Source of the DNA: an uncultured virus (IMG/VR IMGVR_UViG_3300042861_002315)
Taxonomy: Duplodnaviria > Heunggongvirae > Uroviricota > Caudoviricetes
IMG/VR virus record: IMGVR_UViG_3300042861_002315
DNA: 64,000 bases
Strand: one strand, 5' to 3'
The position numbers and the translations under genes are program-made. The notes below the pieces were generated by a model. The model saw only the letters and a list, made by a program, of their open reading frames with translations. It was not told where the DNA came from and did no database searches. Position 1 is the first letter of the stretch. Every line of letters starts with the position of its first letter. Of this stretch, positions 46,671 to 62,946 are shown in pieces.

Positions 46671-48353
46671 CTAGAATTGGATGGCGTTGATTTCTTCGCA
46701 GTTAGGGATGCTATCAGTGAATATAAGTAGGTCGTTGCTTTCATTATAGTCTGGACTGTATTTACGAGCAAACTTATCATTTTCCCAATACTCGTCTTCA
46801 GTGAGGTAATTTTTGTCATCGCCAAATAGCATAATAGTGTTGTTGCTTGTTTTTTGACTGAGGTAGCCTATAACATAAGCCACGCAGTCTACCCATTCGT
46901 TAGTGGAGAATAGGGGGAAGCCAACCAGCTCGTTTATAGCGTGGTCTGGGTCATAAGTCTCATCAAGAGTGTAGTCAGTCGAGTGTGGTTTGTAAAAGTA
47001 TAATTGACCATTCTTGATGTAAGGAACAGCAGCGCCAAAACGTTTCTCTTTATCAGCCTGTGCTTTTCCACCCCACTCACTAGGACGAAAAGGTACGATG
47101 TTGGGGAACTCACTAGCAAGCAAGCGCATCACTGCTTCGCCATTAGCTTTCGCCTCAACACCAATTTCAGCTTCAGGATATTTCTTGGCTAGTTTTTTGA
47201 TAGCTGCCATTTGCCCCACGATGTCCAGCTTTGCGCGAATACCATCAATGACATAATAGTTGTCTTCTTTTCTGCCTACCACAGCACCAAGATTCCACGA
47301 TGTAGAGGCTTGAGATGCTGCAAAGGTCAAGTCCCACATAATAATCATAGAATCTAGCTTAGTGGGTTTTTGAGATACAATTCTGATATCTGTTTCACTG
47401 ATGGTTATGCCTTTGCCACCACCACTGGGGTCTTGATTGAATAGAGTTTTACGGCGGATTGGGTCTAATCCATCTAATAATTTTAAAGGTATTCTGGTTT
47501 TATCTAGCAATTGCCCTTCTGTTTTTCTGGGGTCATTCCACTTTTCACCCAAAGGAGAGAAGTAAGTTTTGCGTTTAGCGAACTCAGCAGGTATACAAAG
47601 TTCAAAAAAACAGTCTTCTCCTATAAATTTGTTATGTAAATGATTTACAAGGTCGCTATCGCCTAGTCTTTGATTGATAGCTATTCGGACATCTGAGTTA
47701 AAATCATTAGTTCTACCGAATAACTGGTCAGTCACCCACTTATTTCTCTGTTCTCGTATAGACTCATTTTTATACATCTCTTCATCGATAATGTCATCTA
47801 TAAGAAATACAGTGCCTCCACTACCGATAATACCTGTATCTGGAGATGATATATTTATCTCTCCCTTACCTGTATTGCTAATCTTAGTCTTAGTTGATTG
47901 GTCGTCTGATAATTTAAAACTGAACCATTCGTGGTTTGGATTACAGTATCTATTCTTATAATCTGGGTGATTAACAATATTTCGAGTTGCAATCAGGTTA
48001 CTAGTGCATAAACCTAACTTGTGTGAACTCAGATAGAATTTTTCTTCAGGGTGGGATATCCACCTAAATGCAGGAGCAGAGATAGAAGTGATAGTCGTCT
48101 TCCCGCTACGAGGAGGTACAGTAACAATTAGTCGCTTTATTTGTCGATTTAAAGCTGCCTCTACGTGTTCAGCAACACAGTCAATGTGCCAGTTTTTCTC
48201 TAAAGGAACACCTTGATGAAAACCCCAAGCCCATGCGTAGAAGTGGCGCAACTTTTTACTTGCTTTTTCTGCCAATACATCATCGAGTGCATCTGTCATT
48301 TGCCGAAGCTCGGCATCACTCATATCATTAGAATTTTTCTGTCTGATTGCCAT
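46671..48353 (-). CDS. terL: Terminase large subunit
   Basis: VTVPPRSGKT Walker A, FLIDD Walker B, RNase H-like WDLTF...VEAKANG...EWVDC. Confidence 0.95.
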   Translation of the reverse strand: MAIRQKNSNDMSDAELRQMTDALDDVLAEKASKKLRHFYAWAWGFHQGVPLEKNWHIDCVAEHVEAALNRQIKRLIVTVPPRSGKTTITSISAPAFRWISHPEEKFYLSSHKLGLCTSNLIATRNIVNHPDYKNRYCNPNHEWFSFKLSDDQSTKTKISNTGKGEINISSPDTGIIGSGGTVFLIDDIIDEEMYKNESIREQRNKWVTDQLFGRTNDFNSDVRIAINQRLGDSDLVNHLHNKFIGEDCFFELCIPAEFAKRKTYFSPLGEKWNDPRKTEGQLLDKTRIPLKLLDGLDPIRRKTLFNQDPSGGGKGITISETDIRIVSQKPTKLDSMIIMWDLTFAASQASTSWNLGAVVGRKEDNYYVIDGIRAKLDIVGQMAAIKKLAKKYPEAEIGVEAKANGEAVMRLLASEFPNIVPFRPSEWGGKAQADKEKRFGAAVPYIKNGQLYFYKPHSTDYTLDETYDPDHAINELVGFPLFSTNEWVDCVAYVIGYLSQKTSNNTIMLFGDDKNYLTEDEYWENDKFARKYSPDYNESNDLLIFTDSIPNCEEINAIQF

Positions 48354-48398
48354 GCTTATGTATGTTATCTTATACTAAGCAATCATATCACTTTCCTT

Positions 48399-48737
48399 GT
48401 GGCTCGATTCAAAGTTCAGATTAAAGATAGCATCCTTAAGCAGCCTGTCAAGCGCTACATACCAACTGACATAATTGGAGTACAGTTCTTGATTGACTTT
48501 GCTAAATGTGATGCCAAAAATCCACGCACTATCGAGTATTTAAAAGTTATCATGCCGTCAGAAAAAAATATTGTGGCAGCTAATGCAGTGATGGTGTGGA
48601 TAGTAACGCATAAAGAACTAGACTTGAAATTATATAGCCCATTAAAGAACGTGGTAGAGTACATAGACAACAATCAAGCGCCTTACGGCGTGCAGAAAAA
48701 AGAAATAAGGTCGGGAACTAAAAGATGTACAGAGTAG
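48399..48737 (+). CDS. Hypothetical protein (~112 aa)
   Basis: Likely GTG start at 48399, divergent from terL. Confidence 0.5.
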   Translation: MARFKVQIKDSILKQPVKRYIPTDIIGVQFLIDFAKCDAKNPRTIEYLKVIMPSEKNIVAANAVMVWIVTHKELDLKLYSPLKNVVEYIDNNQAPYGVQKKEIRSGTKRCTE

Positions 48738-48934
48738 TTAAACTTGATAACGAACTGTGGGGTGTACAGCAAAAGGTGTTGTTGTGGTGGTTGAACTATA
48801 GCGTCGTACAATGGGTATCTGAGAACAATTTTCATAGTGTACCTGAAAAAATACCTGTAGCATTCTTTTCGCAAGAAGAGGCTGAAGATTTTGTTGAATT
48901 ACTTAATAATGGAGAATTAAAAGATGGCAAATAG
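48725..48934 (+). CDS. Small hypothetical protein (69 aa)
   Basis: Coupled ORF. Confidence 0.55.
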   Translation: MYRVVKLDNELWGVQQKVLLWWLNYSVVQWVSENNFHSVPEKIPVAFFSQEEAEDFVELLNNGELKDGK

Positions 48935-49658
48935 TCCAATCGAGCAAAAACTAAAATCACTTCGTAACTTAAACAGTAATCAACCCGAACTACAGAAAAT
49001 AACAATACACAAAGCTAATAAAACTAGTTGGATTAACTGGAATCATATTCGCAACGCCTATGTTCTAGGTAAACGCATTGAAGAATTTGATGAGGAGACT
49101 GGACACACACGTATCTGGTCTGAGAGTTATAACTTAGAGGAGCTGGCGGATGAGTTTGGTGTTGGAATCAGTCAACTAACTAAGAAATCCGCTATCGAAG
49201 GTTGGGGTCAGCTTAGGAATAGTTACTTGGCGCGAGTACAAGAAGAGGCTCTTGGACGTGAGCTTGGTTACTTTACTAATGAGGAAAGTGAGGCTGAGGC
49301 GAACAGCTTAGCCATTATTCGTAAAGGGGTGAGACTGATTAATTTAGGGCTTGAGCAAGAGTATGGCGATTTACTTGAGGCTATGGACAGTAACGATGAT
49401 GTAGACTTGCGCGAATACAATACGGTCAATCTAAAGGCGCTGAATGAAGGAATCAAGGGGCTGAAGGCACTCCATGAGCTGCATAGCAAAGTCATGGAGC
49501 AAGCACCTAAGACTAATCAAGAGTTATTGGAGACGCTGAACCGTAGTAAGACAGTTGAGAGACTGAAAAATCCTAAAGAGCGTGAGAAATTGCAAAAGGA
49601 GTTACAAAAGAAATTGCAACTCCTTAGCCAGATTGAAGAGGATGATGACGAAGATTAA
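48924..49658 (+). CDS. Putative terminase small subunit
   Basis: NWNHIRNAYVLG...LEELADEFGVGISQLTKKSAIEGW matches the TerS N-terminal HTH pattern; coiled-coil C-terminus. Confidence 0.6.
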   Translation: MANSPIEQKLKSLRNLNSNQPELQKITIHKANKTSWINWNHIRNAYVLGKRIEEFDEETGHTRIWSESYNLEELADEFGVGISQLTKKSAIEGWGQLRNSYLARVQEEALGRELGYFTNEESEAEANSLAIIRKGVRLINLGLEQEYGDLLEAMDSNDDVDLREYNTVNLKALNEGIKGLKALHELHSKVMEQAPKTNQELLETLNRSKTVERLKNPKEREKLQKELQKKLQLLSQIEEDDDED

Positions 49659-49819
49659 TCTTGAGGAGGATTTGCCCATCTATTAGCTGCATCTCTAGCC
49701 TCTTGTCCTTCTTGTTTTAGTTTATCGATTCTAGCTTGGACTTCAGCAGCTTTACGCCTAACCTCACTAGATACATTTGTCGGAGTATTATTCTCATCAA
49801 TATTGATTGTTCTAGGAGC

Positions 49820-50821
49820 TTATCCAGATTGTCTTGCAGTGTTTGCATATAAATCGGAAGCATTTTTTCTTGCACGTACAGCAGCAATTCTATCATCCCA
49901 ATTTTTTTCGCTAGTCAGTCCCACTTTATCTGCCCACTTATCAAAACCTTGATTCTTGCGGCGTAGTTGTCCATAGCCTACAGCAGCAGTACCTCCAGCT
50001 ACAGTACCGATACCAGCTCCAGCTATAGAGCCTGTAGCAGTTCTACCCAATATTTTACCTACTCTTCCTAAAGCGGTTGTACTATCTTTTTCTTCTTGGG
50101 ATTCGCCAGCACCCATGCCTCTAGCTAATCCGTATACAGCGCCAGCACCTAATCCAGTTCTAGCTCCTAAAACAGCACCTACCGCACCTAAATTTGTAAG
50201 ACTAAAATTGGCATCTGATGAAGTGGCAAAATTGGCAAAATGTTGCATCTGTTTTTGTTGTGTGAAGTTTATTCTATTATTGTAGCCTGTCATAAATGGC
50301 TTACCTAAAGATTTCTTCCAATATAAATTTTTCATTTCTGCTTCGTCATACTTGGTATTCATGTTTTTAATAGCGTCATTGTCAATCAGTTTTACTTGAC
50401 GCTTGTTAACGTCGGGTTTTACTATATTGCCTTCATGTATATCTGTATGACCTAGACCTTCTTTTAAAAGACGATTTTGCATACGACCCACTTGACTACC
50501 AAGTTTGTATTGCTCTTTAGAATTAATTCCTTTAAATCTTTTCGGTAATGGTGTACCTGCGTAATTTTGAGTGTAAGAAACCATATTGCCAAGTTCGCGA
50601 TAGTTCTGAACTGGAGGTACTAGTCCTGTCGCTCTAGCAGCTTTATCTGCATTATTGTATTCTTTTCTGATTGCATCTACAAAAGCTTCTGGGTACTCTC
50701 GCTCAGGATTCATGTTGTCGATGCGTACTTTGTTTGTAGCAGGGAAATGTAGTACGCGCTTGTCTGGTGTAAGAAGAAGGGCTTTGGCGTTGCGGATTCG
50801 GGCGAAGTCGGTGATGTTCAT
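49820..50821 (-). CDS. Kinase-like domain fused to MQHFANF linker and glycine-zipper module (333 aa)
   Basis: HTDIHEGNI and VKLIDND catalytic-loop-like motifs; internal MQHFANFATSSDANF. Confidence 0.65.
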   Translation of the reverse strand: MNITDFARIRNAKALLLTPDKRVLHFPATNKVRIDNMNPEREYPEAFVDAIRKEYNNADKAARATGLVPPVQNYRELGNMVSYTQNYAGTPLPKRFKGINSKEQYKLGSQVGRMQNRLLKEGLGHTDIHEGNIVKPDVNKRQVKLIDNDAIKNMNTKYDEAEMKNLYWKKSLGKPFMTGYNNRINFTQQKQMQHFANFATSSDANFSLTNLGAVGAVLGARTGLGAGAVYGLARGMGAGESQEEKDSTTALGRVGKILGRTATGSIAGAGIGTVAGGTAAVGYGQLRRKNQGFDKWADKVGLTSEKNWDDRIAAVRARKNASDLYANTARQSG

Positions 50822-50825
50822 GTGG

Positions 50826-51188
50826 TTAGAATACTTTATAGAGGATATCGGGATTCAAAGACATTATTTTTCTTGACTCTGCGCTGAGGGGATTGCGGTC
50901 TGAAGTGCAGAAATAAAGCTTGGTACGTTCTTTGTTGTAATGCATGGCGTAGTGCCTGAGTTGAGAAATTGCAGATTTTAGGCTACTAGAATCGTTCCTT
51001 CTCTTACATTCAATAATGTGCCAACAAACACCGCCAGAGGGCAAGTATTCACGCACCAAGCAGTCTATACGTCCTGTGGGTACTTTTACCTCAGTTTGTA
51101 CGACAAAACCGCTAGACCGCATAAAATTGGCAACTGCGTCTCTGGTATATTTCTCTAGTGGTGGCGATGTTTTGCGCTTAGAGGTCAT
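50826..51188 (-). CDS. PD-(D/E)xK nuclease-like protein
   Basis: TEVKVPTGRIDCL...IIECK...AISQLRHY. Confidence 0.75.
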   Translation of the reverse strand: MTSKRKTSPPLEKYTRDAVANFMRSSGFVVQTEVKVPTGRIDCLVREYLPSGGVCWHIIECKRRNDSSSLKSAISQLRHYAMHYNKERTKLYFCTSDRNPLSAESRKIMSLNPDILYKVF

Positions 51189-51397
51189 TAGCTCTTTATA
51201 CGTTCCAACAACTCTTTTGATGCATTGGCTTTGGACAACGCTTTGGGCATGAGAGGAGGCTTGGCGATACTTTTCAGCATCTTTTTATCAGCCTTTTTGC
51301 CAGTTAGCGCTTTTAGTTCTTCTAGCTTAGGTGGAAAGATGTCAGGTAGCTTGGTTGCTGGTTTCTTGGTTGCTACTGGTGTGCTTAGTTCATTCAT
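51188..51397 (-). CDS. Small basic hypothetical protein
   Basis: 69-aa coupled ORF. Confidence 0.5.
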   Translation of the reverse strand: MNELSTPVATKKPATKLPDIFPPKLEELKALTGKKADKKMLKSIAKPPLMPKALSKANASKELLERIKS

Positions 51398-51690
51398 CTT
51401 GTGAGGGGCTGTCCAATGTTATTTCTATTGTACTGTACCTCGCTGACTCGGCGCATCTCGCCGTCGGACAGGTGCAGAAAGAACTGGTCGGGTTTGCAGT
51501 AGAGTCGTTCGGCAAAATCCCGCTCCACGTAAGTATAGCAGTTGTTAGGTATTTTGATGCGTACTTTTTGAACTACTGTGGGCTGTCGGTATGGGCGAAT
51601 GTCTTCGTGAGGGAATGAGAAAGAAAACGCTGGCGCTACGTCAGTGAAAAGAAGGGTGAGGGTTAGGGCGAGTGATTTAGGATTGGGCAT
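51394..51690 (-). CDS. Hypothetical protein with signal-peptide-like N-terminus
   Basis: LALTLTLLFTDVAPAFS. Confidence 0.5.
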   Translation of the reverse strand: MPNPKSLALTLTLLFTDVAPAFSFSFPHEDIRPYRQPTVVQKVRIKIPNNCYTYVERDFAERLYCKPDQFFLHLSDGEMRRVSEVQYNRNNIGQPLTR

Positions 51691-51732
51691 GGTTAGTTAT
51701 CTTGGTTTGTTTAGAAGTTTTGTGTCATTTTA

Positions 51733-52227
51733 CTATATCTTTTCAAAAAATACAACTCTGGAAGCATCAGTTTTTTGTTCGTAACCTAAATCTAGCATAG
51801 TTGCCTTCAGGGTTTTTTGGTCAGCTTCTGGAAAATCTTTACAAACTACTTTCAACTCTTTCAGGTATATCCTAGTGCGTTTTTTAGTCTTGTAGCAAGA
51901 AAAGTAGGTTTCGAGATAATTTTCTATAAAGACTTTCAGTAAATCTTCTTTGTCAGAAACTGGGTACATATTGGAAACCGCGTCTAATAGCTCTTCCCTT
52001 ACCTTTTTGTTGTAAGAGAACCATTCTCCACCTATCCTATAATTACTCAATTTGTCGTGCAATTTCTTTTCTTCTACAATTCCTCCTACGAAAGTTAGTA
52101 GTACATCAAGTCTGTCAGTTGTGCCTGTTTGCAAGGAAGCTAATCTTTTTAATGGGTCAGTTGCATAACCAATTTTTACCTCGTTTTTATTTGGACAATA
52201 GATAGCGTAGACGAATGTTTGTGTCAT
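51733..52227 (-). CDS. GIY-YIG (T5orf172/MUG113-like) domain protein
   Basis: FVYAI...VKIGYATDPLKRLASLQTG...EKKLH...GEWF. Confidence 0.85.
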   Translation of the reverse strand: MTQTFVYAIYCPNKNEVKIGYATDPLKRLASLQTGTTDRLDVLLTFVGGIVEEKKLHDKLSNYRIGGEWFSYNKKVREELLDAVSNMYPVSDKEDLLKVFIENYLETYFSCYKTKKRTRIYLKELKVVCKDFPEADQKTLKATMLDLGYEQKTDASRVVFFEKI

Positions 52228-52228
52228 G

Positions 52229-52918
52229 TTAATAGGTAGGTCTAAAGAATTTGGTAGCGCAAGAACCCGATTTTACAACTTCCCAACCAGCAGCTAATAA
52301 AATACTCTCAATTTCTTGTGTAGAAAGCTCTACAGAGCAGATTACTTTTTTTAGTGCTGGGATAGTAATATTTTTTCTGTTAGCTCTTGATTGTTTTAGT
52401 TCGTAAGCTTTTTCAATTACCAAGGCGTTTATAATGTCGCAATCAAAAAGCTCTTTGTCGTATTCAAGGTAGTTCTTGGCTTGCATGATGGCTCTGGCAA
52501 TAGTGGAGTTGTCAAACTCCCTGTAACCAATAAATGCTGCCAACTCTCTACGGAGGTAGTCATAAGCTTTATAGATTGTCTCCGCGTCACTTGCACCTTT
52601 GTAGTAAATTTTTGGATTTTCCTTATTCTCATCAAAGATAACTGAAAAATCTGCAAGTAGGTACTCATTATTTTTAAGTACGAGCGCCAACTTATTAGGT
52701 TTTATAGTTTTACCTTCATCTTGAGCTTTTGTAAGCTTAGATAACTCAGATGCAAATTGACTGACCATCATAGTAATCAAGGTAGCTACTTTAGTCTTAG
52801 ACGGTTCGGAATCTACGTCTGTAAGCTCGGCTACTGCCTGTTTTACGATTTCTAGGTCTGGTGGTATACGTTTCAACTCTGTTCGCAGACTATGGACTAA
52901 TTGGGAATCTGTGGTCAT
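52229..52918 (-). CDS. Hypothetical protein, paralog of 7731-8438
   Basis: Extensive motif identity with 7731-8438. Confidence 0.75.
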   Translation of the reverse strand: MTTDSQLVHSLRTELKRIPPDLEIVKQAVAELTDVDSEPSKTKVATLITMMVSQFASELSKLTKAQDEGKTIKPNKLALVLKNNEYLLADFSVIFDENKENPKIYYKGASDAETIYKAYDYLRRELAAFIGYREFDNSTIARAIMQAKNYLEYDKELFDCDIINALVIEKAYELKQSRANRKNITIPALKKVICSVELSTQEIESILLAAGWEVVKSGSCATKFFRPTY

Positions 52919-52937
52919 CTACAATCATTACTTTTTT

Positions 52938-53115
52938 AAACTATGTAAACATTGTAGCATACCTAAAACTATGTAAGGTATTTTTCGATTTACAAAGATA
53001 AGGTTGGATTCGCTTATTTATCCTTGTAGGCAAATTGCTGTATCTTTGTAAGTGGTTATTTTGATTTTAAGTGCTAAGGGCTTATTTTGGCATCTATCTT
53101 TGTAATTACATAGTT
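52938..53115. repeat. Cluster of direct and inverted 10-11 bp repeats
   Basis: AACTATGTAA at 52939 and 52967, inverted at 53106. TATCTTTGTAA at 53041 and 53095, inverted at 52990, degenerate at 53019. Confidence 0.7.
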
Positions 53116-53195
53116 AACTATTTATCATCGTCATCATCGGGACACTCCGTAGCCCTACGGCGATTGAGTAGGCTGTATAAAATTTCCCTTATACT

Positions 53196-53245
53196 TTTGC
53201 TAACTGTATAAAGAACTTTGCTAATCGAATACGCTGTTTTGCTAA
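53196..53245 (+). repeat. Three TTTGCTAA repeats with 21-bp period
   Basis: Copies at 53196, 53217 and 53238. Confidence 0.7.
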
Positions 53246-53688
53246 CGTTTCATAGTATGTATGAATGTTCGAGTATTATCGAACAATGCTGTGATGGCGC
53301 AAACTCGTTGCTATATGTGCAATTTGTTGCATAGTAATATAGTTGTAGGTGTTTTATAGGGTTTGATGAAGCAAATGATAATCATTCTCATTCTCGTTTA
53401 ACTCTCGTATATACGAACATCACATGAGCATATCCCATACTTCCCTCACACAAATATCATATATCCCTTATCTATCTCTAAGTCAAATATCATCCTTTTC
53501 ATTATAAATTCAGTATCATACGATACAGATTAAGCTACACTCTATACTGTATAATGCTTTCAGCGCATAAATAAAGCGCTCAGACAACTTTCACCAAGGA
53601 GAAATAAAAAAGAACCTCACTTACCCTCACATAACGAACATGAAAATAATATAATGGGAGATTAAAAATATTCAATTTAAAAAAAGTG

Positions 53689-53717
53689 TTGACATTCTAG
53701 ATTAATCTTGATAACTT
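53689..53717 (+). promoter_or_regulatory. Sigma70-type early promoter P1
   Basis: TTGACA-17 bp-TAACTT with upstream A-tract. Confidence 0.75.
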
Positions 53718-53831
53718 GATTTACATGAGATACGAGATAAGCAAAGCCAAGCAGTCAAACGCAAAGCCAAGCGCTCTAACTCATAGCCTATCTAGTTTCT
53801 AGCTGACTCAAAAAGATTTTTTCTTTAGGGC

Positions 53832-53860
53832 TTGCAATTTAAAAGGAACTAAGCTAAGCT
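53832..53860 (+). promoter_or_regulatory. Sigma70-type early promoter P2
   Basis: TTGCAA-17 bp-TAAGCT with upstream A/T tract. Confidence 0.6.
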
Positions 53861-53898
53861 ACTAAGGCGATTAAGAAACCACACCACACTAAAACATT

Positions 53899-54048
53899 AT
53901 GTATCACGTTATTTTAACTAAAAACCGTTCTGTACGCTATTTCGACAGAGAGACTAAAGCAGTATCTAATACTCTCCCTTTAGATATCTCTAAGTTAATT
54001 TCTAGTCATGAGACTAGATTAGAGGCTATTCGAGCTTGTAATAAATAG
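53899..54048 (+). CDS. Small early protein (49 aa, MYHVILTKNRSVRYFD...)
   Basis: Manual translation; lies between P2 and the first conserved hairpin. Confidence 0.5.
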   Translation: MYHVILTKNRSVRYFDRETKAVSNTLPLDISKLISSHETRLEAIRACNK

Positions 54049-54091
54049 GTTATTCCTAGCAGTACGGTTTCACTGTATTGCTAAGAGTACC
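54048..54091 (+). promoter_or_regulatory. Conserved intergenic hairpin copy 1 (TTCC-TA...TA-AGAG)
   Basis: TAGCAGTACGG/CTGTATTGCTA stem with G-U pairs. Confidence 0.7.
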
Positions 54092-54135
54092 CTTAAAGTC
54101 TCTAAGAGCGCTTACCTCTTTGATATTAAGCGATA

Positions 54136-54154
54136 GTACCTTGAAAACTGAATA
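54136..54154 (+). promoter_or_regulatory. rrn-type boxA antitermination element
   Basis: GTACCTTGAAAACTGAATA resembles the cyanobacterial rRNA spacer boxA (GAACCTTGAAAA). Confidence 0.6.
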
Positions 54155-54620
54155 TAGACTAACGTCAAATCACATCAAGTAATCAGTCTTGAGTGTCAAA
54201 GCTTAGTACCTGTGTAAAAAATATCCTGTGATAAGGTTGCGAGTGGAAAAGTACGATTAGTCAGTAGGGATTAAGTAAATAGCTTTACAACCTATTTACA
54301 TCTCGTTAAATTAGCAATGACTCTAGAGTAATTTAAGATATCTCTAGACAGCCGTAAGTTTGATAGAGTTCTAAGAACTATCAGCGCTTGCAATACCATT
54401 TTGAGGCGCTATAACAAAACACTGCGATGAGCTTAAATAATCGCGTTACTTCTTTCTGTAAAGAGAGGGTAACTAAGACAAAAACTAAGTAGCTCTGACT
54501 ATTCAAGATTGCTATAGGCTACTAGCTGAAATACCGCTAGAGACAGCTAAGACATATTCTTAGGTCTAATACACTATCCAATCTAATAGAACGCTGTAAC
54601 AGGCAAAAAGTGAGCTATGT
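54155..54620 (+). ncRNA. Candidate large structured non-coding RNA (family not assigned; ends approximate)
   Basis: No ORF >=60 aa; about ten consecutive helices, a loop-E-like AGUA/GAA motif and a GNRA tetraloop. Confidence 0.55.
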
Positions 54621-54656
54621 AGTCTAGTCCTAACTGTGCTGTAACAGAGGTACATT

Positions 54657-54863
54657 ATGATACAAACTACAATCCTATTTTATAAGTGGTTGGCTTTTGC
54701 AATTCTTTTAGAAGTGCATAATAACGCTTATATGTGTTTTATTCCTGATTACTCTCTTAGTGATTGGGATAAACAGTTGCACTATATTGCACAAGAAAAA
54801 CTCAGTGATGCTTGGTTTTCCCTGACTAACGAAATTTATACTCAAATATTTAAAAACAAATAA
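54657..54863 (+). CDS. Early hypothetical protein (68 aa)
   Basis: GAGG upstream of ATG. Confidence 0.55.
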   Translation: MIQTTILFYKWLAFAILLEVHNNAYMCFIPDYSLSDWDKQLHYIAQEKLSDAWFSLTNEIYTQIFKNK

Positions 54864-54926
54864 ACGAAGTAAATACAGCACAGCTAAGACTAGCACTATC
54901 GCTATGTCTATTATCGTGAGGTAATC

Positions 54927-55181
54927 ATGTATCTTGCTACTTTTAAGTATCCTGAAAGTGACTATGTAAGCGCTTTACAGGTTGAGAGTAAAGAAGCTCT
55001 TACAACACTTTTCAATGAGTTAAACGAAGAGCATCAACCGATTGATGTTAAGTTCTATCCTATTGAACAAGTTGAAGAGCGCTATATTTCTAGTAATGGG
55101 AGTATAGATAAGGTTTGGTGTATGAAAGATAAGGCATTACGAAAGATTGTCTTGTCTGGCAAGTATGCTAAAACCTTGTAA
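54927..55181 (+). CDS. Early hypothetical protein (84 aa)
   Basis: GAGG RBS plus ATG. Confidence 0.65.
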   Translation: MYLATFKYPESDYVSALQVESKEALTTLFNELNEEHQPIDVKFYPIEQVEERYISSNGSIDKVWCMKDKALRKIVLSGKYAKTL

Positions 55182-55277
55182 CATTATGGGAGAGGGGGCG
55201 TACCCTTATTCAACCCTATCAACTTTTTCTATATCCCCCAAAAAAATCTCAAACTATCTATGAGGCAATGAAATAAA

Positions 55278-55655
55278 ATGGTTCAATACAACTTGATAAA
55301 AAGAGCAGAAGAAAAAGATTACGAACTTCTGCAAGAGAAAGGCTTTTTCGGTATTGATGCAAGTCTTGAAGAATCGCTTGAAGAATATAACCTAGCTATA
55401 TCGTATAACTCTGGTTGGGGCGATATTGGTGACTGTACGGTATTATATCGCAGCAATGATGCAGACGGCTCTAGGACATGGAAACAAACCTATGTAGACG
55501 GTGCAGAAATTTGTGCCAAAGTTGATGCAAGTTGGTTTGACAAAAAAGCGTTTTTCTCATTCATTGATTCTACTGATAATGATTGGAAACTACAGCCACT
55601 AGTGCATCAACTCTACAGCCTAATACAGTACTATGGTGTAGACAATATCTTGTAG
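55278..55655 (+). CDS. Early hypothetical protein (125 aa)
   Basis: Acidic ORF in early array. Confidence 0.7.
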   Translation: MVQYNLIKRAEEKDYELLQEKGFFGIDASLEESLEEYNLAISYNSGWGDIGDCTVLYRSNDADGSRTWKQTYVDGAEICAKVDASWFDKKAFFSFIDSTDNDWKLQPLVHQLYSLIQYYGVDNIL

Positions 55656-55701
55656 TGATTATTCCTAGCTGTAGCGTGACAGTACAGCTAAGAGTATTCA
55701 C
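55655..55701 (+). promoter_or_regulatory. Conserved intergenic hairpin copy 2
   Basis: GTGA..ATTCC-TAGCTGTA/TACAGCTA-AGAGT..TCAC. Confidence 0.7.
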
Positions 55702-55756
55702 TCTAACAGTGTATATCTCTACTAACCTCTAAACTTGCCTATAGGGTAAGGAACCA

Positions 55757-56293
55757 ATGAACAAACGTGAGATTATAGCCGAAGGGCTACAACGTGGCTA
55801 CAGCATCGCAAAGTCGATAGACCTTGTAGGTATCGGTGGCTATGGTGACGGTCAATTTTTAGATGAACGTGGGAAAGTTAGAATTACTTCTCAAAATTGG
55901 CTAGAGTTCCATACTAACTATGCTTATGAGTGCGAAAGTCAAGATAGACAGTTTTCCCCTTTTGAGTTCTTGGCTAACGACATTAACGCGACTGAAGATA
56001 ATCCTAGAGTCAAATTTGAGCCTTGGTTTGAATTTGACGAAGCAATCTCTAGAGGTATCCGCAAAGCGCTGAAAGAGCGATGGAAGTCTATTCGTATGAC
56101 TAAGGAAGATTACTGGAAAACCTTTGATGGCAGTCGCGATTTGTTTGATACAGTATGGCGCAAATTACGAAGCTATGCCAAGTCTTCTATTGATTTAGAT
56201 TGGAACGATAACAATGCAGTTGAAGATTGGCTAGATACCTTATCTAGTGAACTTGTAAACGACTCTAGCAGTAGGTTTTACATCTATGGGTAA
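55757..56293 (+). CDS. Early hypothetical protein (178 aa)
   Basis: AAGGA RBS plus ATG. Confidence 0.7.
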   Translation: MNKREIIAEGLQRGYSIAKSIDLVGIGGYGDGQFLDERGKVRITSQNWLEFHTNYAYECESQDRQFSPFEFLANDINATEDNPRVKFEPWFEFDEAISRGIRKALKERWKSIRMTKEDYWKTFDGSRDLFDTVWRKLRSYAKSSIDLDWNDNNAVEDWLDTLSSELVNDSSSRFYIYG

Positions 56294-56492
56294 ATCAAAA
56301 TGTAAACAAAAAGGATATCAGCGCAAAACTAGAGATTTGTACGATATCCTACAGCGAACTGTCTACGGTGTAGAAGTTGTATGTACTGAAACATCATGGG
56401 CAGATTGCAAAACTAATTTGAAGCTTTACCGTGAAGCAGACCCAAGAGGGCAGTATTTGTATAGAAAATATAGAGAGAGAATTGCATCATGA
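56286..56492 (+). CDS. Early hypothetical protein (68 aa)
   Basis: Coupled ORF. Confidence 0.6.
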   Translation: MGKSKCKQKGYQRKTRDLYDILQRTVYGVEVVCTETSWADCKTNLKLYREADPRGQYLYRKYRERIAS

Positions 56493-56689
56493 CACTAACA
56501 CAAGCAATTGACTGGCTACAAAATCTACCTTGTATCGAAGAAAATCAAACTGATGAGACACTAGACCATGAACAGTGGCTTCAATTAGAATCTAAATCTA
56601 GGCAAGCTATCGATATTGTGGAGGACTTTCTAAGTAACTCTAAAATGAACTTGATAAAAATTGAACAAAATCTTTGGTGGGAAAAATAG
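56489..56689 (+). CDS. Early hypothetical protein (66 aa)
   Basis: ATGA overlap with the previous stop. Confidence 0.6.
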   Translation: MTLTQAIDWLQNLPCIEENQTDETLDHEQWLQLESKSRQAIDIVEDFLSNSKMNLIKIEQNLWWEK

Positions 56690-56701
56690 AATAATCGCTT
56701 G

Positions 56702-56756
56702 ACATTTTTCCTAACTGTCTGTAGGCTTTAAATTTACAGACAGTCAAGAGCAATGT
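56702..56756 (+). promoter_or_regulatory. Conserved intergenic hairpin copy 3
   Basis: TTCC-TA-ACTGTCTGTA/TACAGACAGT-CA-AGAG. Confidence 0.7.
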
Positions 56757-56817
56757 AGCTATCGCTTATAGCGCTCTTTTCACTCACGCTCAAACTAACT
56801 ACAGGTTAGGAATTATA

Positions 56818-57339
56818 ATGAAACCAACAACAGAAAATATTATTACTCGCAGTACTGAAACTGATAATGTAATTGGCATCTATGAAGTGTTTATCTCGCA
56901 TCAGCGCAATCCTGATATAGATAGAAATAAAAAATCTAAAAACTTTCAAGATGATAGTGACGCTTGGCTTGTAGTCATCAATGGTCAACGCTTTGATTAC
57001 TATACAGGCGTAGGGCATCGTCATATCGATAGAATGACTGTGCTTGGTACTAAGTGGGATTATGACTACATTAAAAAGAATCGTCATAAATTGTATATGG
57101 ATGTTCTGGTACAAGTCTCGAAACCCGTAACCCCAAAATTCGATAGTATATTGGCTTGTCTAGTACAAGATGCTGTGGGTAGCGCCCAAACGTTTGATAA
57201 TTGGTGTAGCGACTATGGCTACGATACAGACTCTCGCAAAGCTCTCGACACATATATGGCTTGTCAAGAAACAGCTAAAAAGTTGAGACTCGCTAGAGTG
57301 CCTGTAACAGCAGAAGCAGAACGTCTACAGGATTACTAG
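56818..57339 (+). CDS. Early hypothetical protein (173 aa)
   Basis: AGGA RBS; TFDNWCSDYGYDTDSRKA segment. Confidence 0.75.
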   Translation: MKPTTENIITRSTETDNVIGIYEVFISHQRNPDIDRNKKSKNFQDDSDAWLVVINGQRFDYYTGVGHRHIDRMTVLGTKWDYDYIKKNRHKLYMDVLVQVSKPVTPKFDSILACLVQDAVGSAQTFDNWCSDYGYDTDSRKALDTYMACQETAKKLRLARVPVTAEAERLQDY

Positions 57340-57391
57340 AACTTTCCTAGCAGTACTCATATTTCGTTTGGGTATTGCTAAGAGCGCTCTA
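57337..57391 (+). promoter_or_regulatory. Conserved intergenic hairpin copy 4
   Basis: TTCC-TAGCAGTACTCA/TGGGTATTGCTA-AGAG. Confidence 0.7.
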
Positions 57392-57440
57392 AGCGACTCT
57401 ACCTAACCAATCTAAAACTAGCTATAGGCTAGGAACTATC

Positions 57441-58403
57441 ATGGCACGTATCAAACGAGTTTTCCAGAACGCTAGAGAAACAATTCACGTTTTCGCTCAA
57501 CAGTCTCAAGATGAGGGTAGAAGCAGCAATGTATCTTTCAAACCCTCTAGCACCTCATTAGAGATTGGTGATGCACTTTACAGCTATAACACTTGCATCG
57601 CTGCATTTCGTGAAACTCCTAACGGTGCGAAAGTATTGTTTCTTGACTACTACTCTCATTCATCTTGCACTTCCAAGCATCAAAGCGCGGTACATTACAG
57701 CGTTACGCAACCGATTTACAGCTATGACTATATTCCTCACTGGGTTAGGGACGATGTGAACTACCTTAGCGGTAGACGTGGTTCTAGACGTGACAATTCC
57801 CCTCATACTGTCAAACCTGAATCTATTTGGCAACAATACAAAGAAATTTTTGATGCTCTTGTTGCTACAGTTAGACAAAAGCGCTTTGCTCGGACTGCTT
57901 GCGAACGTCTGAATATGGCTAGAGAGTATGAAGCTAAAGCCAATAGAATCAAGCGTTCTTTCAATCTCGACAGTCTTCCAGATATTGAGCTTGTCATCAC
58001 CCCGCAAATGCAAGAGTATGTAGAACTTGCAGAACAGAAGAAAGTAGAAAAAGAAAAGCGTGAGAAGGAAAAGATTCAGCGTGACATTGAACGTACTGCA
58101 ATTGACCGTGAGAAGTGGCTTACAGGACATTGTAATTACTTTCCTCATGCGTATCAATTCCCTATCGTGCTACGCTTATCTCCTAGCGATTCTAGCCGTG
58201 TTGAAACCTCTAGAGGTGCATTTGTACCCGTCAAGGTGTGTGAGCGTCTCTATCGTGCATTCCAAGCGAAGCTAATGCCTGAAGATGTGCGTGTAGGAAA
58301 CTACACTCTCAACAGTGTCAGTGAGCAAGGTATTACAATCGGTTGTCATCAAATCAGCGCTGATGAACTTGAGCGCTTTGCTAAGGTAATCGGTATCGCG
58401 TAA
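57441..58403 (+). CDS. Early hypothetical protein (320 aa)
   Basis: AGGA RBS; long ORF. Confidence 0.8.
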   Translation: MARIKRVFQNARETIHVFAQQSQDEGRSSNVSFKPSSTSLEIGDALYSYNTCIAAFRETPNGAKVLFLDYYSHSSCTSKHQSAVHYSVTQPIYSYDYIPHWVRDDVNYLSGRRGSRRDNSPHTVKPESIWQQYKEIFDALVATVRQKRFARTACERLNMAREYEAKANRIKRSFNLDSLPDIELVITPQMQEYVELAEQKKVEKEKREKEKIQRDIERTAIDREKWLTGHCNYFPHAYQFPIVLRLSPSDSSRVETSRGAFVPVKVCERLYRAFQAKLMPEDVRVGNYTLNSVSEQGITIGCHQISADELERFAKVIGIA

Positions 58404-58480
58404 CTTTCTTTTCTGACTATGCCTTGTAGTGTCTTGCAAGGCTTGCTAGCCCTAATATAACTATGGATGGATGAATGGTA

Positions 58481-58754
58481 ATGTCTATAACAACTCGTCT
58501 TTGGAATGATGCAGACTTAGAACGCCTTGCAACTGATGATAACCTCTTGACCGTAAATCTGCGACAAAGTAGTTATCGAACTATACGCTAAAGAGATTGC
58601 TAGACCTATTATTGATGTCTTACTACAAGTCAACATGAAAAAAGACAGCTTTGAGCTATTTAAAGAGCTTTTCAACAAAGACTACATCGTGAGAGAGGCT
58701 ATCTACTTCTTTAAAAATCAAACACTAGATTTTGAGGCTAAAATTCATGATTGA
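58481..58754 (+). pseudogene. Frameshifted small gene (or sequencing error)
   Basis: MSITTRLWNDADLERLATDDNLLTV continues in the +1 frame as ICDKVVIELYAKEIARP...KIHD*. Confidence 0.45.
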
Positions 58755-58941
58755 AGCTGCTATCTTTGGATTTGTATCTGGTTGTCTGGTATCTGGTTTG
58801 TGCTGCTTTAGAATAGGCTACCAACAACGTATTTGGGATACACTAGAAATTACAGCCGCTAAAAATGCCAAGATTGAAGCTTATGAGTCCATACTTGGCA
58901 CAATGAAACTTAAAAAAGAGATTGGACATACCCACGAATAA
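58747..58941 (+). CDS. Small membrane-anchored hypothetical protein
   Basis: Likely start MIEAAIFGFVSGCLVSG. Confidence 0.55.
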   Translation: MIEAAIFGFVSGCLVSGLCCFRIGYQQRIWDTLEITAAKNAKIEAYESILGTMKLKKEIGHTHE

Positions 58942-58980
58942 TCTATTCTTTTTGACTACACAAAAAACTAGCTAACGCAG

Positions 58981-59033
58981 TTGACTTTTCCTATCTGTCT
59001 GGTATAAGCTACTGGACAGATAAGAGTAATCAA
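58981..59033 (+). promoter_or_regulatory. Conserved intergenic hairpin copy 5
   Basis: TTCC-TATCTGTCTGGTA/TACTGGACAGATA-AGAG. Confidence 0.7.
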
Positions 59034-59284
59034 TGTTCACCATTACTCTATCACAAAACAAAATGACAGATACATTATTTTCAAGACGCACATCAAACCG
59101 TAACAACACTGAAATGCTACCACTACCAACATTTGCCGCACCTACTCAAATCAGCTATTCTCTTGTCAACAACAATGCAGACTGGGAAAATTTACGCTTA
59201 AAGCTTATTGAACTAAGCACAGCATCTATTCCTTTCACTCTCGAAAAAGAGGATGGTATAAAGCGTATTCGATTGACCTACTAA
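59033..59284 (+). CDS. Early hypothetical protein (start uncertain)
   Basis: ORF track; true start may be a downstream Met. Confidence 0.5.
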   Translation: MFTITLSQNKMTDTLFSRRTSNRNNTEMLPLPTFAAPTQISYSLVNNNADWENLRLKLIELSTASIPFTLEKEDGIKRIRLTY

Positions 59285-59352
59285 CATCCCTAAAGAGAGG
59301 GGCTACCCTTAATTCCCCTCCCTTTTCTGCCCAACTGTTTTGGAGAAAAATT

Positions 59353-59895
59353 ATGACTACTTATGACACTTCAGTTAAATTTGCCAAGCTCGGTTTTGAT
59401 GATTATGTACAATTTGAAAATCGCAAAGTTCAGCTAACTCACTACGACACTGACCACAAAACCCCTCTTTTTCTGCAATTCGTAGGTGATATCGCGCAAC
59501 CTGCTTACTGTATCGGTTTTAAGAATGCTATCGACTGGCTGAAAACTGGTGTTCTCGAAAACCCTAAAATCAAGGTCAAGACCAGCAAAGCCAAACTTGA
59601 CGGTAAGCACTTGATTGTAAAGACTTGGAAAGCTGCTAATGATGGCACAGTCTTCTCTCTGAACTATGACGGTAAAGATTTGGAAGTATGGGAGTTTGAG
59701 AAAGTAATATTTCCTGACCTCTCAGACTTATCACGAAGCAGCCTTAATCTGTTTTCTCCTTGGTTCTTAAATGTCTTCACGCCGTCAAAGAATAAATTCC
59801 GCTCTACTTTCAATGTAGAACACTGGAATGTCGCAAAACACATTGTAGAACGTATCGCAATCGTGCGTGAGGTATTGAAAAATGAATCTCGCTAA
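59353..59895 (+). CDS. Early hypothetical protein (180 aa)
   Basis: GGAG RBS plus ATG. Confidence 0.75.
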   Translation: MTTYDTSVKFAKLGFDDYVQFENRKVQLTHYDTDHKTPLFLQFVGDIAQPAYCIGFKNAIDWLKTGVLENPKIKVKTSKAKLDGKHLIVKTWKAANDGTVFSLNYDGKDLEVWEFEKVIFPDLSDLSRSSLNLFSPWFLNVFTPSKNKFRSTFNVEHWNVAKHIVERIAIVREVLKNESR

Positions 59896-60082
59896 ACTCA
59901 CCCATAGCTACCACATCTCATTGGCAGAAAAACAAGCTACCAAGACACGCAATCAAGCCAACCTCACTCGTATAGCTTCAGCACTTCAACAACACTCTAA
60001 TCGTCAAATCTTGCAATCTATAGGAGAATATTTAAATGTCTGCCAAAAAACAAACTTGGGTGAAACGTCACCATACTTGTAA
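59882..60082 (+). CDS. Hypothetical protein (66 aa)
   Basis: GAGG RBS; overlaps neighbours. Confidence 0.45.
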   Translation: MNLAKLTHSYHISLAEKQATKTRNQANLTRIASALQQHSNRQILQSIGEYLNVCQKTNLGETSPYL

Positions 60083-60263
60083 AGGACACAGCACCACAGA
60101 TATTATCAGATATTCTAATCCTGACAAGCTTCTAACCCAACTGTTCGACGGTGATGTACCTGACGGCTTTGTTGTCTCACTAAACACGCCAGAACGCATT
60201 GAACTTACTTTTAATGGTCAGCCAACTTTTTATTTTGAACCTATAGGGAGAATTAGACGATGA
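60036..60263 (+). CDS. Hypothetical protein (75 aa)
   Basis: AGGAG RBS. Confidence 0.6.
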   Translation: MSAKKQTWVKRHHTCKGHSTTDIIRYSNPDKLLTQLFDGDVPDGFVVSLNTPERIELTFNGQPTFYFEPIGRIRR

Positions 60264-60622
60264 AAGCAATTCAAGTTTCCTACTCTAATACCACTGGCAA
60301 GTATCGCGCCAAAGCTGAGGGTGTTCCTGCTATCATCCGCAGCAAAGAAGAAAACGGTGGTTATACTGCATCTAAAATCGCCCACGAATTAGCCAATAAA
60401 TACAATTGGCTGCAATTTAACGGTGAGACTAAATACCGTCTTGTGGAAGGTTTTTTACCTAATGGTAATGATGTATTCGTGTTTGTTAAAGATGTTCAAC
60501 CACTCCTAGATGAAGTTGAGTACATTCTTTCAATTGACTACGACTCTCAGAATCGTAACTTGGAACTTTGCAAAGATACCGTTGACACACTTCGAGAGGT
60601 TTATAAAAAATATGCAAACTAA
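60260..60622 (+). CDS. Hypothetical protein (120 aa)
   Basis: ATGA overlap. Confidence 0.7.
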   Translation: MKAIQVSYSNTTGKYRAKAEGVPAIIRSKEENGGYTASKIAHELANKYNWLQFNGETKYRLVEGFLPNGNDVFVFVKDVQPLLDEVEYILSIDYDSQNRNLELCKDTVDTLREVYKKYAN

Positions 60623-61202
60623 AAATCTTTCTCGCGAACAACTACTCACTTCTTTTCTGCACAGAGCTTGCGACCTCTCTTCTAGTGGTTTACAAATCGA
60701 CTCTGAAGGCTATCTCTACGCCTCTGGTGAAATGATAGCCGCTTGGCGAGGTTATGGTCTTGGTGGTACATTATTCATTGATTGCGGCTCATCTAAGGTG
60801 TGCAACCGTAGGGCAGCTAACGACCTCAAAGAGTTGGCAGAAAAAGAAGGAGTAGCTTATTTGTGTTACAACACACACTCGTACATTATCTCTCCTGAAT
60901 TTCAGTTCGCTGAACGTCTAGTCTCCTATGCAATCTGGGCTACTCCTAAAGTAGTGAATCCTGAAAATATCTTTGCTCAAAGCAAAAAACTGCTTGACAA
61001 GGCTATAGAAAAAGATATAAGCTTTGAAAGTATTCAATCATTACTTGATTCAACTCAACACATTGCAACGTTATTTGGTTTCACGTTCGATAAAACGTCT
61101 TACGACGTTAAGAGACAACAACACATCGAAACAGCAAGCGCAGTAAAAGCGGAGCGCATTGCATACCACAAAAAAGAGCTAGAGAGGTTACTTGCATCAT
61201 GA
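60612..61202 (+). CDS. Hypothetical protein (~196 aa)
   Basis: Likely start MQTKNL at 60612. Confidence 0.65.
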   Translation: MQTKNLSREQLLTSFLHRACDLSSSGLQIDSEGYLYASGEMIAAWRGYGLGGTLFIDCGSSKVCNRRAANDLKELAEKEGVAYLCYNTHSYIISPEFQFAERLVSYAIWATPKVVNPENIFAQSKKLLDKAIEKDISFESIQSLLDSTQHIATLFGFTFDKTSYDVKRQQHIETASAVKAERIAYHKKELERLLAS

Positions 61203-61471
61203 AATTAATTCAAATTGGAAAAGAAACCTTCATTCCTTCCGACGCTAAAATTGTAAAGGTCAAGTTAGACCCAGACCATCCTAAAGGAGTTGGTACTCTC
61301 ACTATTGTGTATGATGTTCCTCATAACATTCGCGAACAACATGAAGTACTTCATTTGACTGACCCTGAAGATAAGGCAATGGCACTTCGGGTTTTTAGAA
61401 AAATGGCTGCTCAGGTTGTCAACACTACGCCCGAAATTGATTTTTGGGTAAACGTAGTCAATCGTAAATAG
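61199..61471 (+). CDS. Hypothetical protein (90 aa)
   Basis: ATGA overlap. Confidence 0.65.
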   Translation: MKLIQIGKETFIPSDAKIVKVKLDPDHPKGVGTLTIVYDVPHNIREQHEVLHLTDPEDKAMALRVFRKMAAQVVNTTPEIDFWVNVVNRK

Positions 61472-61554
61472 ATTCTCTCTCGCTAGGCAATCTTGTACTA
61501 CCTAGCCAAAGTATTACCCCAACTCACAAGTTAATTACTTTTCAGGAGATTACA

Positions 61555-62115: not shown

Positions 62116-62270
62116 TGACAATCCAACTGACTATTTCAGGTAAAGACCTTAATCAGACATTCCGCAAAGCTCTAGCGACTGTAACCTACTTTAACGTGCT
62201 TACTAAAGTAGGTTACAAGATTTTATTACAAGCTCCTGACGGAGAACTCAAGGAGGCAATCTTAAAATGA
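62112..62270 (+). CDS. Small hypothetical protein (52 aa, MMTIQLTISGKDLNQTFRKAL...)
   Basis: Manual translation; ATGA overlaps at both ends. Confidence 0.55.
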   Translation: MMTIQLTISGKDLNQTFRKALATVTYFNVLTKVGYKILLQAPDGELKEAILK

Positions 62271-62758: not shown

Positions 62759-62946
62759 TCATGACATCTAACTCACTAGCCAGACCTCCTCCGCCTTACG
62801 ACCGATGACTCCAACTATACTCCTTTCTCTCTAACAATTTCTACTTGGTGCAACTAATGTTTTTTCCTTGGACTGGTTTCTGTTTGACTGTTTGGGCTAT
62901 CTCTGTAACTATCGCACTCATCACCCCCCCAAATGAAGATAAGTAA

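What the first reader, a model, noticed from the sequence alone, without database searches (positions are those of the whole stretch)
54155..54620. Candidate ~470-nt highly structured ncRNA at the head of the early transcript
This stretch has no ORF >=60 aa and is packed with helices. GACTAACGT (54157) pairs with ACG-A-TTAGTC (54253-62), enclosing TCAAG/CTTGA and a loop-E-like GCTT-AGTA-C / G-GAA-AAGT motif (54201/54245). Further stems: GGGAT..GTAAATAG/CTATTTAC-ATCTC (54267-304), TCTAGAG/CTCTAGA (54322-48), TGATA..GTTC/GAAC-TATCA (54361-83), AGCGCTT/AGGCGCT (54383-410), GCGAT/ATCGC, a GTAA-tetraloop hairpin (54445-73), GTAGC/GCTAC and TAGCTG/CAGCTA. G-U pairs support a plus-strand RNA. Large phage ncRNAs such as GOLLD and ROOL are known, but I cannot assign this one to a family.
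Basis: partly seen in the sequence, partly recalled or inferred. Interest (0 to 1): 0.8.

Follow-up and report, generated by a model that had tools for sequence, protein, structure and literature searches.

The report
Modular folded RNAs heading cyanophage operon
The gene-free stretch is a real, conserved row of separately folded and swappable RNA domains at the start of a freshwater cyanobacterial virus's early message, placed behind a copy of the host's ribosomal-RNA transcription signal; it matches no catalogued RNA family and its job is untested.

Summary
Real structured RNA, but not one co-folded ncRNA. No Rfam match. Folding energy is not better than shuffles (z -1.55); the support comes from 15 related phages, including Pseudanabaena phages PA-SR01 and Pam2. 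The stretch resolves into domain A (three-way junction with bulged-G-type motif), hairpin B1, domain B (loop-loop pseudoknot 54332-37/54432-37), an empty 'socket' hairpin, and domain C (T-loop-like hairpin). Each shows double-sided changes (3/29, 5/39, 5/13 pairs). The domains reassort: five fold families fill slot A, 8 of 16 phages carry a gene in the socket, and no covarying helix links domains. Upstream lies a boxA-like 17-mer (16 of 16 phages) that precedes rRNA/tRNA genes in cyanobacteria; C.A-mismatch stems flank the array and wrap swappable genes. Best reading: an rRNA-operon-style early transcript, probably cut by an RNase III-family enzyme into stable small RNAs that act as exchangeable cargo; processing and function are inferred. 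Contigs from RNA libraries of two studies cover it (weak). This scan noted the same element before on other DNA (e1-5943317, e1-5863281).

The parts
53689..53717 (+). Predicted promoter P1 (-35 TTGACA, 17 nt, -10 TAACTT) after an A/T tract
   Evidence: Sequence; a loose -35/16-18/TAnnnT pattern is found upstream of boxA in 15 of 16 phages (no shuffle control); not listed by the consensus scan, whose count equals chance. Inferred.
53832..53860 (+). Predicted promoter P2 (-35 TTGCAA, 17 nt, -10 TAAGCT)
   Evidence: a counterpart in 5 relatives (L078, L080, L081, L085, L087, L098 show it or a variant). Inferred.
53935..54110 (+). Extra structured insert seen only in this phage; overlaps a 49-aa ORF (53899-54048) without homolog
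   Evidence: z -4.5 including the next hairpin; no match in 15 relatives or GenBank phages; no tblastn hit for the ORF.
54050..54092 (+). Long hairpin with a C.A mismatch; same type recurs just after stop codons at 55657-55702 and 57339-57390; candidate RNase III-family site
   Evidence: arms vary among phage copies while pairing and the mismatch are kept. Cleavage inferred.
54138..54154 (+). boxA-like 17-mer, identical to a motif before cyanobacterial rRNA and tRNA genes
   Evidence: Within 3 mismatches in 16 of 16 phages, exact in 8, single copy in the 64-kb window; 13 of 20 cyanobacterial loci with the exact motif have rRNA or tRNA downstream within 300 nt; before 16S and 23S in 4 of 4 rrn operons. 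The name boxA is recalled and from earlier findings.
54157..54262 (+). Domain A: three-way junction; P1 54157-65/54253-62, P2 54171-79/54188-95 with bulged A, P3 with bulged-G (loop E / S-turn)-type motif, distal hairpin 54225-36
   Evidence: distant member L098 at 43 bits keeps the fold with different helix sequences. Motif name from own knowledge.
54267..54304 (+). Hairpin B1
   Evidence: 3 double-changed pairs among 5 sequences; replaced by a longer hairpin in L084, L085, L098.
54312..54445 (+). Domain B: hairpins 54322-48, 54358-80, 54383-410, 54424-44, with a 6-bp loop-loop pseudoknot 54332-37/54432-37
   Evidence: Pseudoknot paired in 7 of 7, one pair U-A in 5 and C-G in 2 (the two may be one event); first and last hairpins co-occur in the same 7 of 16 phages.
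54445..54473 (+). Socket hairpin, empty here; in 8 of 16 phages it extends into a 28-30 bp stem that loops out a small gene
   Evidence: empty in 4, gene-bearing in 8, absent in 4.
54484..54623 (+). Domain C: closing helix 54484-95/54612-23, long interrupted stem, junction with a 9-nt T-loop-like hairpin (54522-40) and a variable hairpin (54541-67)
   Evidence: model R2 hits 15 of 16 phages; loop pattern UGNAANAYY in 15 of 16.
54621..54644 (+). 5' arm of gene-wrapping stem (helix, C.A, 2 bp, A.C, helix)
   Evidence: 17 instances in 16 phages, same geometry.
54657..54863 (+). 68-aa orphan ORF looped out by the stem; unrelated ORFs or none in relatives
   Evidence: no family; homologs in L083, L078.
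54873..54898 (+). 3' arm of gene-wrapping stem

Best explanation
The stretch is the front of the main early transcript of a Pam2/PA-SR01-group Pseudanabaena-type cyanophage, organised like a bacterial rRNA operon. Shown: fixed order of promoter-like sites, boxA-like signal, three independently folded RNA domains (A, B, C) with tertiary-type motifs, and long mismatch stems that wrap exchangeable small genes; domains and genes reassort between phages. Inferred: host RNA polymerase starts at P1/P2, boxA loads the host NusB/S10 complex, which here serves fast, processive transcription and co-transcriptional folding rather than escape from Rho; a host RNase III-family enzyme cuts the C.A-mismatch stems, releasing an RNA of roughly 54080-54630 and protected mRNAs for the small genes. 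The domains are then best seen as RNA cargo, exchanged like the neighbouring orphan genes by recombination at the constant flanks, most likely acting in trans on host RNA-binding proteins or nucleases (decoy or sponge). Odds: modular structured array 0.85; processing to a stable RNA 0.55; trans-acting cargo 0.35.
For: Covariation per domain; distant homolog keeps fold A; double changes in P2 also seen in read contigs. Reassortment matrix: slot 1 holds A in 7, a distant A in 1, and four other folds in 3, 2, 2 and 1 phages; slot 2 holds B in 7 and a different pseudoknotted domain in 5 by script, 6 by eye. No inter-domain helix with convincing double change. boxA in 16 of 16 phages and before host rRNA/tRNA; no strong anti-boxA partner within up to 2 kb in phages (-7.6 to -14.0 kcal/mol) unlike 5 of 7 host copies (-16 to -26), so it stays free for protein binding. 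NusB in 41 of 41 and Rho over cut-off in 10 of 41 Cyanobacteriota genomes; Nus/boxA function at rRNA is mainly maturation (PMC4807359, abstract). All stems share a two-fold-symmetric mismatch geometry; RNase III matures T7 pre-mRNA (PMC8708148, passage) and cyanobacteria have RNase III and Mini-III (PMC10989914, passages). Contigs from RNA libraries of two studies cover 54123-54601.
Against: No transcript ends, cleavage or binding were measured. Whole-region folding is not better than shuffles, and in this phage the global MFE (-116.5) prefers a cross-domain helix 54183-204/54490-512 over the sum of modules (-104.8), although that helix is strong in only 2 of 7 carriers of A. Alignments are small (7-13 sequences) and closely related; several double changes may be single events; structures were partly drawn from these sequences. 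The mismatch geometry was not seen in the pre-rRNA stems of four cyanobacteria (none is the host genus), and the stems lack the ACCU site preferred by B. subtilis Mini-III (PMC4357697, passages). A -17.0 partner for boxA exists at 58306 in this window (conservation untested). The read data are contigs, which cannot show strand, ends or level, and may hold DNA. The decoy role has no direct evidence.
Confidence: 0.55

Rival explanations
1. One large processed ncRNA of about 550 nt that folds and perhaps oligomerises as a unit, GOLLD-style: conserved 3' domain (C), variable 5' domains, and a linker socket whose gene cargo is cut out like an rRNA intervening sequence.
For: Domain C in 15 of 16 phages; fixed order; pseudoknots, T-loop-like and bulged-G-type motifs; GOLLD also has a conserved 3' and variable 5' domain with tRNAs in its linker (10.1101/2024.12.08.627333, passages); read contigs bridge A-B and B-C; boxA-to-stem length is 434-467 nt in 5 phages despite different content.
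Against: Free reassortment, loss of the T-loop hairpin in L081, duplication of C in L088, two genes plus intergenic elements between A and C in L078; lengths range 263-1068 nt; no covarying inter-domain helix; no GOLLD/ROOL match in Rfam.
Confidence: 0.2
2. A purely cis-acting leader: the structures shield the early message from 5' decay, modulate elongation, or tune translation of the first genes, and are degraded with it.
For: No terminator-like site on the plus strand through 64000; position between promoter and first genes; stems enclose ribosome-binding sites of the cargo genes.
Against: Invariant unpaired motifs and pseudoknots exceed what a protective hairpin needs; unrelated folds substitute for each other; the downstream gene changes while domain C stays.
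Confidence: 0.2
3. DNA-level element (origin, packaging or recombination cassettes like T4 PeSLs) or chance hairpins in AT-rich DNA.
For: Weak folding z-scores; constant flanks clearly allow gene exchange, as PeSLs do (PMC2839356, abstract).
Against: One-sided changes run through G-U on the plus strand, pseudoknots and RNA-type motifs, boxA works as RNA; stems carry no promoter and no U-tail, unlike PeSLs. Recombination at the flanks is compatible with the best explanation.
Confidence: 0.05

Closest known systems
Bacterial rrn operon front end (tandem promoters, boxA/Nus complex, leader-trailer helices cut by RNase III; PMC10250234 passages, PMC4807359 abstract)
   Same: Promoter pair, the same 17-mer as before cyanobacterial rRNA and tRNA genes, long helices looping out a product, structured RNA downstream.
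   Different: Viral; no rRNA or tRNA; the boxA-like site has no conserved pairing partner; helices wrap small protein genes; mismatch geometry differs from the four host-phylum pre-rRNA stems seen.
Phage T7 early polycistronic RNA with RNase III sites (PMC8708148, passage)
   Same: Long imperfect stems between early genes, no terminator.
   Different: Symmetric C.A mismatches rather than the R1.1 loop (recalled); some stems enclose whole genes; preceded by an array of folded RNA domains.
GOLLD and ROOL large phage ncRNAs (10.1101/2024.12.08.627333, passages)
   Same: Phage-borne, non-coding, multi-domain, pseudoknots; conserved 3' and variable 5' part as in GOLLD.
   Different: No Rfam match, shorter, not next to tRNAs in this window, domains reassort and are interrupted by genes.
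PeSL cassettes of T4-type phages (PMC2839356, abstract)
   Same: Repeated flanks in a hypervariable early region that allow exchange of orphan genes.
   Different: PeSLs are promoter plus terminator; these stems have neither and pair across the gene.
rRNA intervening sequences (PMC8708148, passage)
   Same: An insert on a stem inside a structured RNA, optional between relatives.
   Different: Host RNA is a phage RNA array, excision unshown.

Membership tests
GOLLD / ROOL / any Rfam family | Match to the family covariance model | tested here: not met
   0 hits at gathering score in the window and 15 relatives; E-value scans give only chance-level hits of 13-17 bits.
GOLLD / ROOL-like ornate ncRNA | Domains linked into one fold by conserved long-range pairing | tested here: not met
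   No convincing covarying inter-domain helix; one 4-bp border hit only; reassortment. Few shared taxa (4-6) limit power.
GOLLD / ROOL-like ornate ncRNA | Discrete abundant transcript; oligomeric cage | not testable with these tools
   Only assembled contigs were available.
rrn-type boxA leader | boxA sequence equal to that before host-phylum rRNA genes, downstream of a promoter | tested here: met
   host genus itself not among the genomes seen.
rrn-type boxA leader | Host has NusB | tested here: met
   41 of 41 Cyanobacteriota genomes; host strain not identified among them.
rrn-type boxA leader | NusB/S10 binding and altered elongation | not testable with these tools
   Needs biochemistry.
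rrn-type boxA leader | boxA doubles as 5' arm of a processing helix, rRNA follows | tested here: not met
   No strong conserved partner in phages; no rRNA or tRNA in the window.
RNase III / Mini-III processing stems | About 20 bp or more of conserved duplex between or around genes | tested here: met
RNase III / Mini-III processing stems | Same signature as known cyanobacterial pre-rRNA stems or Mini-III ACCU site | tested here: not met
   PMC4357697 passages. Specificity of cyanobacterial Mini-III is undetermined (PMC10989914, passage).
RNase III / Mini-III processing stems | Cleavage | not testable with these tools
   No raw reads.
PeSL cassette | Promoter plus terminator stem-loop in each repeat | tested here: not met
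   No plus-strand terminator-like site; stems have no U-tail.

The most novel reading that the evidence does not exclude
The phage's first transcript is a hypervariable array of RNA 'genes': several unrelated, tertiary-folded small RNAs occupy fixed sockets beside orphan protein genes, are matured by the host's rRNA transcription and processing machinery, and act in trans against host functions or defences, so RNA folds are shuffled as effectors just as early proteins are.
Probability: 0.3. Interest if true: 0.85.

Novelty: new variant of a known kind. Interest (0 to 1): 0.55.

Why it matters
Three uncatalogued RNA folds with covariation support, plus several alternatives in the same slots, sit in two cultured phages (PA-SR01, Pam2) with cultured hosts, so the questions of whether phages borrow boxA/Nus in hosts that mostly lack Rho, whether RNase III punctuates cyanophage early RNA, and what phage structured RNAs do can be tested directly. 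The conserved mismatch stem is also a candidate natural substrate for cyanobacterial RNase III-family specificity, which is not known.

Tried and rejected
Rfam, tRNA/tmRNA scans: nothing. No whole genome was held. The MFE cross-domain helix was rejected as the conserved fold (strong in 2 of 7). Loose boxA scan of viral contigs: 69 loci, only 2 relatives (L056, L068); the rest were not homologous downstream. Pattern for the core of domain A: 48 loci, only 3 known relatives, the rest chance or coding. Dropped as chance: L079, L086, L094, L281, L283-285, L291-293, L298, L301; as duplicates: L056, L068, L072, L075, L076, L089, L091-093, L096 and repeats in later scans; L305 is a relative whose locus lacks the array. 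Models R1 and R2 found nothing in 151 Cyanobacteriota genomes each (only 22 candidates scored per genome, so weak). Host pre-rRNA stems did not show the phage mismatch geometry. Read data: in X3 and X8 no other part of 47000-62000 was covered and in X6 the domain-A contig had depth 32 against 2.7-5.3 for the seven other pieces shown, but the tool states that contig depth and gaps cannot rank regions, so this is not counted; contig ends are not used as transcript ends. Small ORFs have no PHROG or Pfam family. T-box, riboswitch and small-ribozyme resemblances were considered from memory and dropped for lack of an Rfam match. Literature: 9 searches found no description of this element; the Pam2 and PA-SR01 papers have no occurrence of 'non-coding'; in PMC10690425 six supplementary files had no hit for four motifs and two dataset ids, but files 1, 2 and 4 were not searched and may list these RNAs.

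Full report
Setting. The window is a phage genome part (terminase large subunit at 46671-48353). Genes run leftward up to 52918 and rightward from 54657 as small orphan ORFs. The flagged stretch has matches in Pseudanabaena phages PA-SR01 and Pam2 (82% over 54134-54543 in PA-SR01), and neighbouring ORFs are 72-77% identical to Pam2 proteins, so the host is probably Pseudanabaena-like (inference). Pattern scans of viral and metagenome contigs gave 13 more independent relatives; with the window, 16 phages were compared (dropped rows are listed under Tried and rejected).

Observation. The quoted helices are at the stated places and there is no ORF of 60 aa. Folding energy is unremarkable: z -1.55 plus, +0.16 minus, and sliding windows over the stretch stay within about 1 sd. 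No Rfam family, tRNA or tmRNA matches. Structure is instead supported by comparison. Domain A (54157-54262): 99.5% of 203 cells paired, 3 of 29 pairs with double changes; a distant copy in L098 (43 bits, part of which is boxA) keeps the three-way junction, bulged A and the invariant bulged-G-type motif with different helix sequences. B1 and domain B: 98.0% of 245 cells, 5 of 39 pairs. An exhaustive helix scan found a 6-bp loop-loop pseudoknot, 54332-37 with 54432-37, paired in 7 of 7 with U-A in 5 and C-G in 2; the two C-G carriers are close kin, so this may be one event. Domain C (54484-54623): 99.1% of 117 cells, 5 of 13 pairs in the alignable core; 19 of 35 pairs in a model-fitted alignment of 13 distinct sequences, which leans towards the model; a 9-nt T-loop-like hairpin loop is kept in 15 of 16 phages. 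Motif names (bulged-G, T-loop) are from my own knowledge.

It is modular. Slot 1 after boxA holds A in 7 phages, the distant A in 1, and four other folds in 3, 2, 2 and 1. Slot 2 holds B in 7 and an unrelated domain with its own covarying 7-bp pseudoknot in 5 by script, 6 by eye. The hairpin 54445-73 is empty in 4 phages, extends into a 28-30 bp stem around a small gene in 8, and is absent in 4. Domain C is hit by model R2 in 15 of 16 and duplicated in L088. The distance from boxA to the end of C ranges from 263 to 1068 nt. No convincing covarying helix links A, B and C. Against this, the global MFE of the window sequence prefers a helix between A and C (-116.5 versus -104.8 for the modules), but it is strong in only 2 of 7 carriers of A.

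Signals around it. A 17-mer at 54138-54154 is present within 3 mismatches in 16 of 16 phages and once in the 64-kb window. The name boxA is recalled and was suggested by earlier findings. In hosts 5 of 7 copies pair with a downstream partner; in phages no partner better than -14.0 kcal/mol lies within up to 2 kb, though one of -17.0 lies at 58306 here. NusB was found in 41 of 41 and Rho in 10 of 41 genomes of the phylum, and no plus-strand terminator-like site lies in 53600-64000, so antitermination as such looks unneeded; the reported main role of the boxA complex is RNA maturation (PMC4807359, abstract). Two promoter-like sites lie upstream, uncontrolled for chance. All gene-wrapping stems share one geometry, helix, C.A, 2 bp, A.C, helix: 17 instances of the 54621/54898 stem in 16 phages enclose about seven unrelated ORFs (grouped by eye), nothing in 2, and no ORF of 35 aa in 1. 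Single-mismatch hairpins follow stop codons at 54050, 55657 and 57339. Two mismatches 2 bp apart fit a dimeric RNase III-family cut (inference), as RNase III does for T7 pre-mRNA (PMC8708148, passage), but the four cyanobacterial pre-rRNA stems seen do not share the geometry and the Mini-III ACCU site is absent (PMC4357697, passages).

Expression. Nine runs hold part of 53600-55300; four were laid. Contigs from RNA libraries of two studies cover 54123-54601, one bridging A and B and one bridging B and C. They show presence only; strand, ends and level cannot be read and DNA may be present.

Mechanism and verdict. Most likely an rRNA-operon-style early transcript whose first 550 nt are a row of independently folded, exchangeable RNA domains, loaded with the host Nus complex and cut at mismatch stems into stable RNA and protected mRNAs; the domains probably act as RNA cargo on host proteins. 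Architecture is shown; Nus loading, cleavage, stability and trans action are inferred (0.55 overall). A GOLLD-like single RNA (0.2; 10.1101/2024.12.08.627333, passages) and a purely cis-acting leader (0.2) remain open. The folds were not found in 151 Cyanobacteriota genomes searched (weak search).

Literature seen. Passages: PMC9382816, PMC10286775, PMC10250234, PMC5829567, PMC4357697, PMC12360218, PMC9241854, PMC10989914, PMC8708148, 10.1101/2024.12.08.627333. Abstract and outline: PMC4807359, PMC2839356. Supplements in part: PMC10690425 (files 1, 2, 4 unseen; they may list these RNAs). Nine searches found no description of this element; subscription papers are not covered. The scan itself has noted this element and this architecture on other DNA; those notes were leads, not evidence.

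Noticed in passing
window 53248-53291: A block identical in PA-SR01 and Pam2 and within 3 mismatches in 7 other phages among those scanned, holding a 7-bp inverted repeat, in the AT-rich gap between the divergent gene clusters; possibly an operator, origin or packaging site.
   Followed up: partly
window 53935-54110: Strongly folding insert (z -4.5) between P2 and boxA, unique to this phage, overlapping a 49-aa ORF without homolog; unclear whether RNA module, gene cassette or both.
   Followed up: partly
window 55173-55183: A second short boxA-like motif after the 84-aa ORF, found on the sense strand in 14 of 16 phage loci, followed by a G-rich/C-rich element.
   Followed up: partly
window 55657-55702 and 57339-57390: Further C.A-mismatch hairpins directly after stop codons; covarying copies in relatives.
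   Followed up: yes
L085 about 2140-2330; L081, L084, L087, L088, L098: Alternative slot-2 domain with an H-type pseudoknot (7 bp + 7 bp, 12-nt linker) showing U-A, U-G and C-G at one pair; no Rfam or GenBank phage match.
   Followed up: partly
L078 between domain A and the socket: A third gene-wrapping stem of the same mismatch geometry around an 80-aa ORF.
   Followed up: partly
L184, L187, L190 (cyanobacterial chromosomes): boxA-like motif followed by mutually similar non-coding sequence with no rRNA or tRNA within 300 nt; may head an unrecognised RNA or a distant tRNA array.
   Followed up: no
window 53764-53800 with 54010-54114: Long helices could pair the P1-proximal RNA with sequence just before boxA; conservation not tested.
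   Followed up: no
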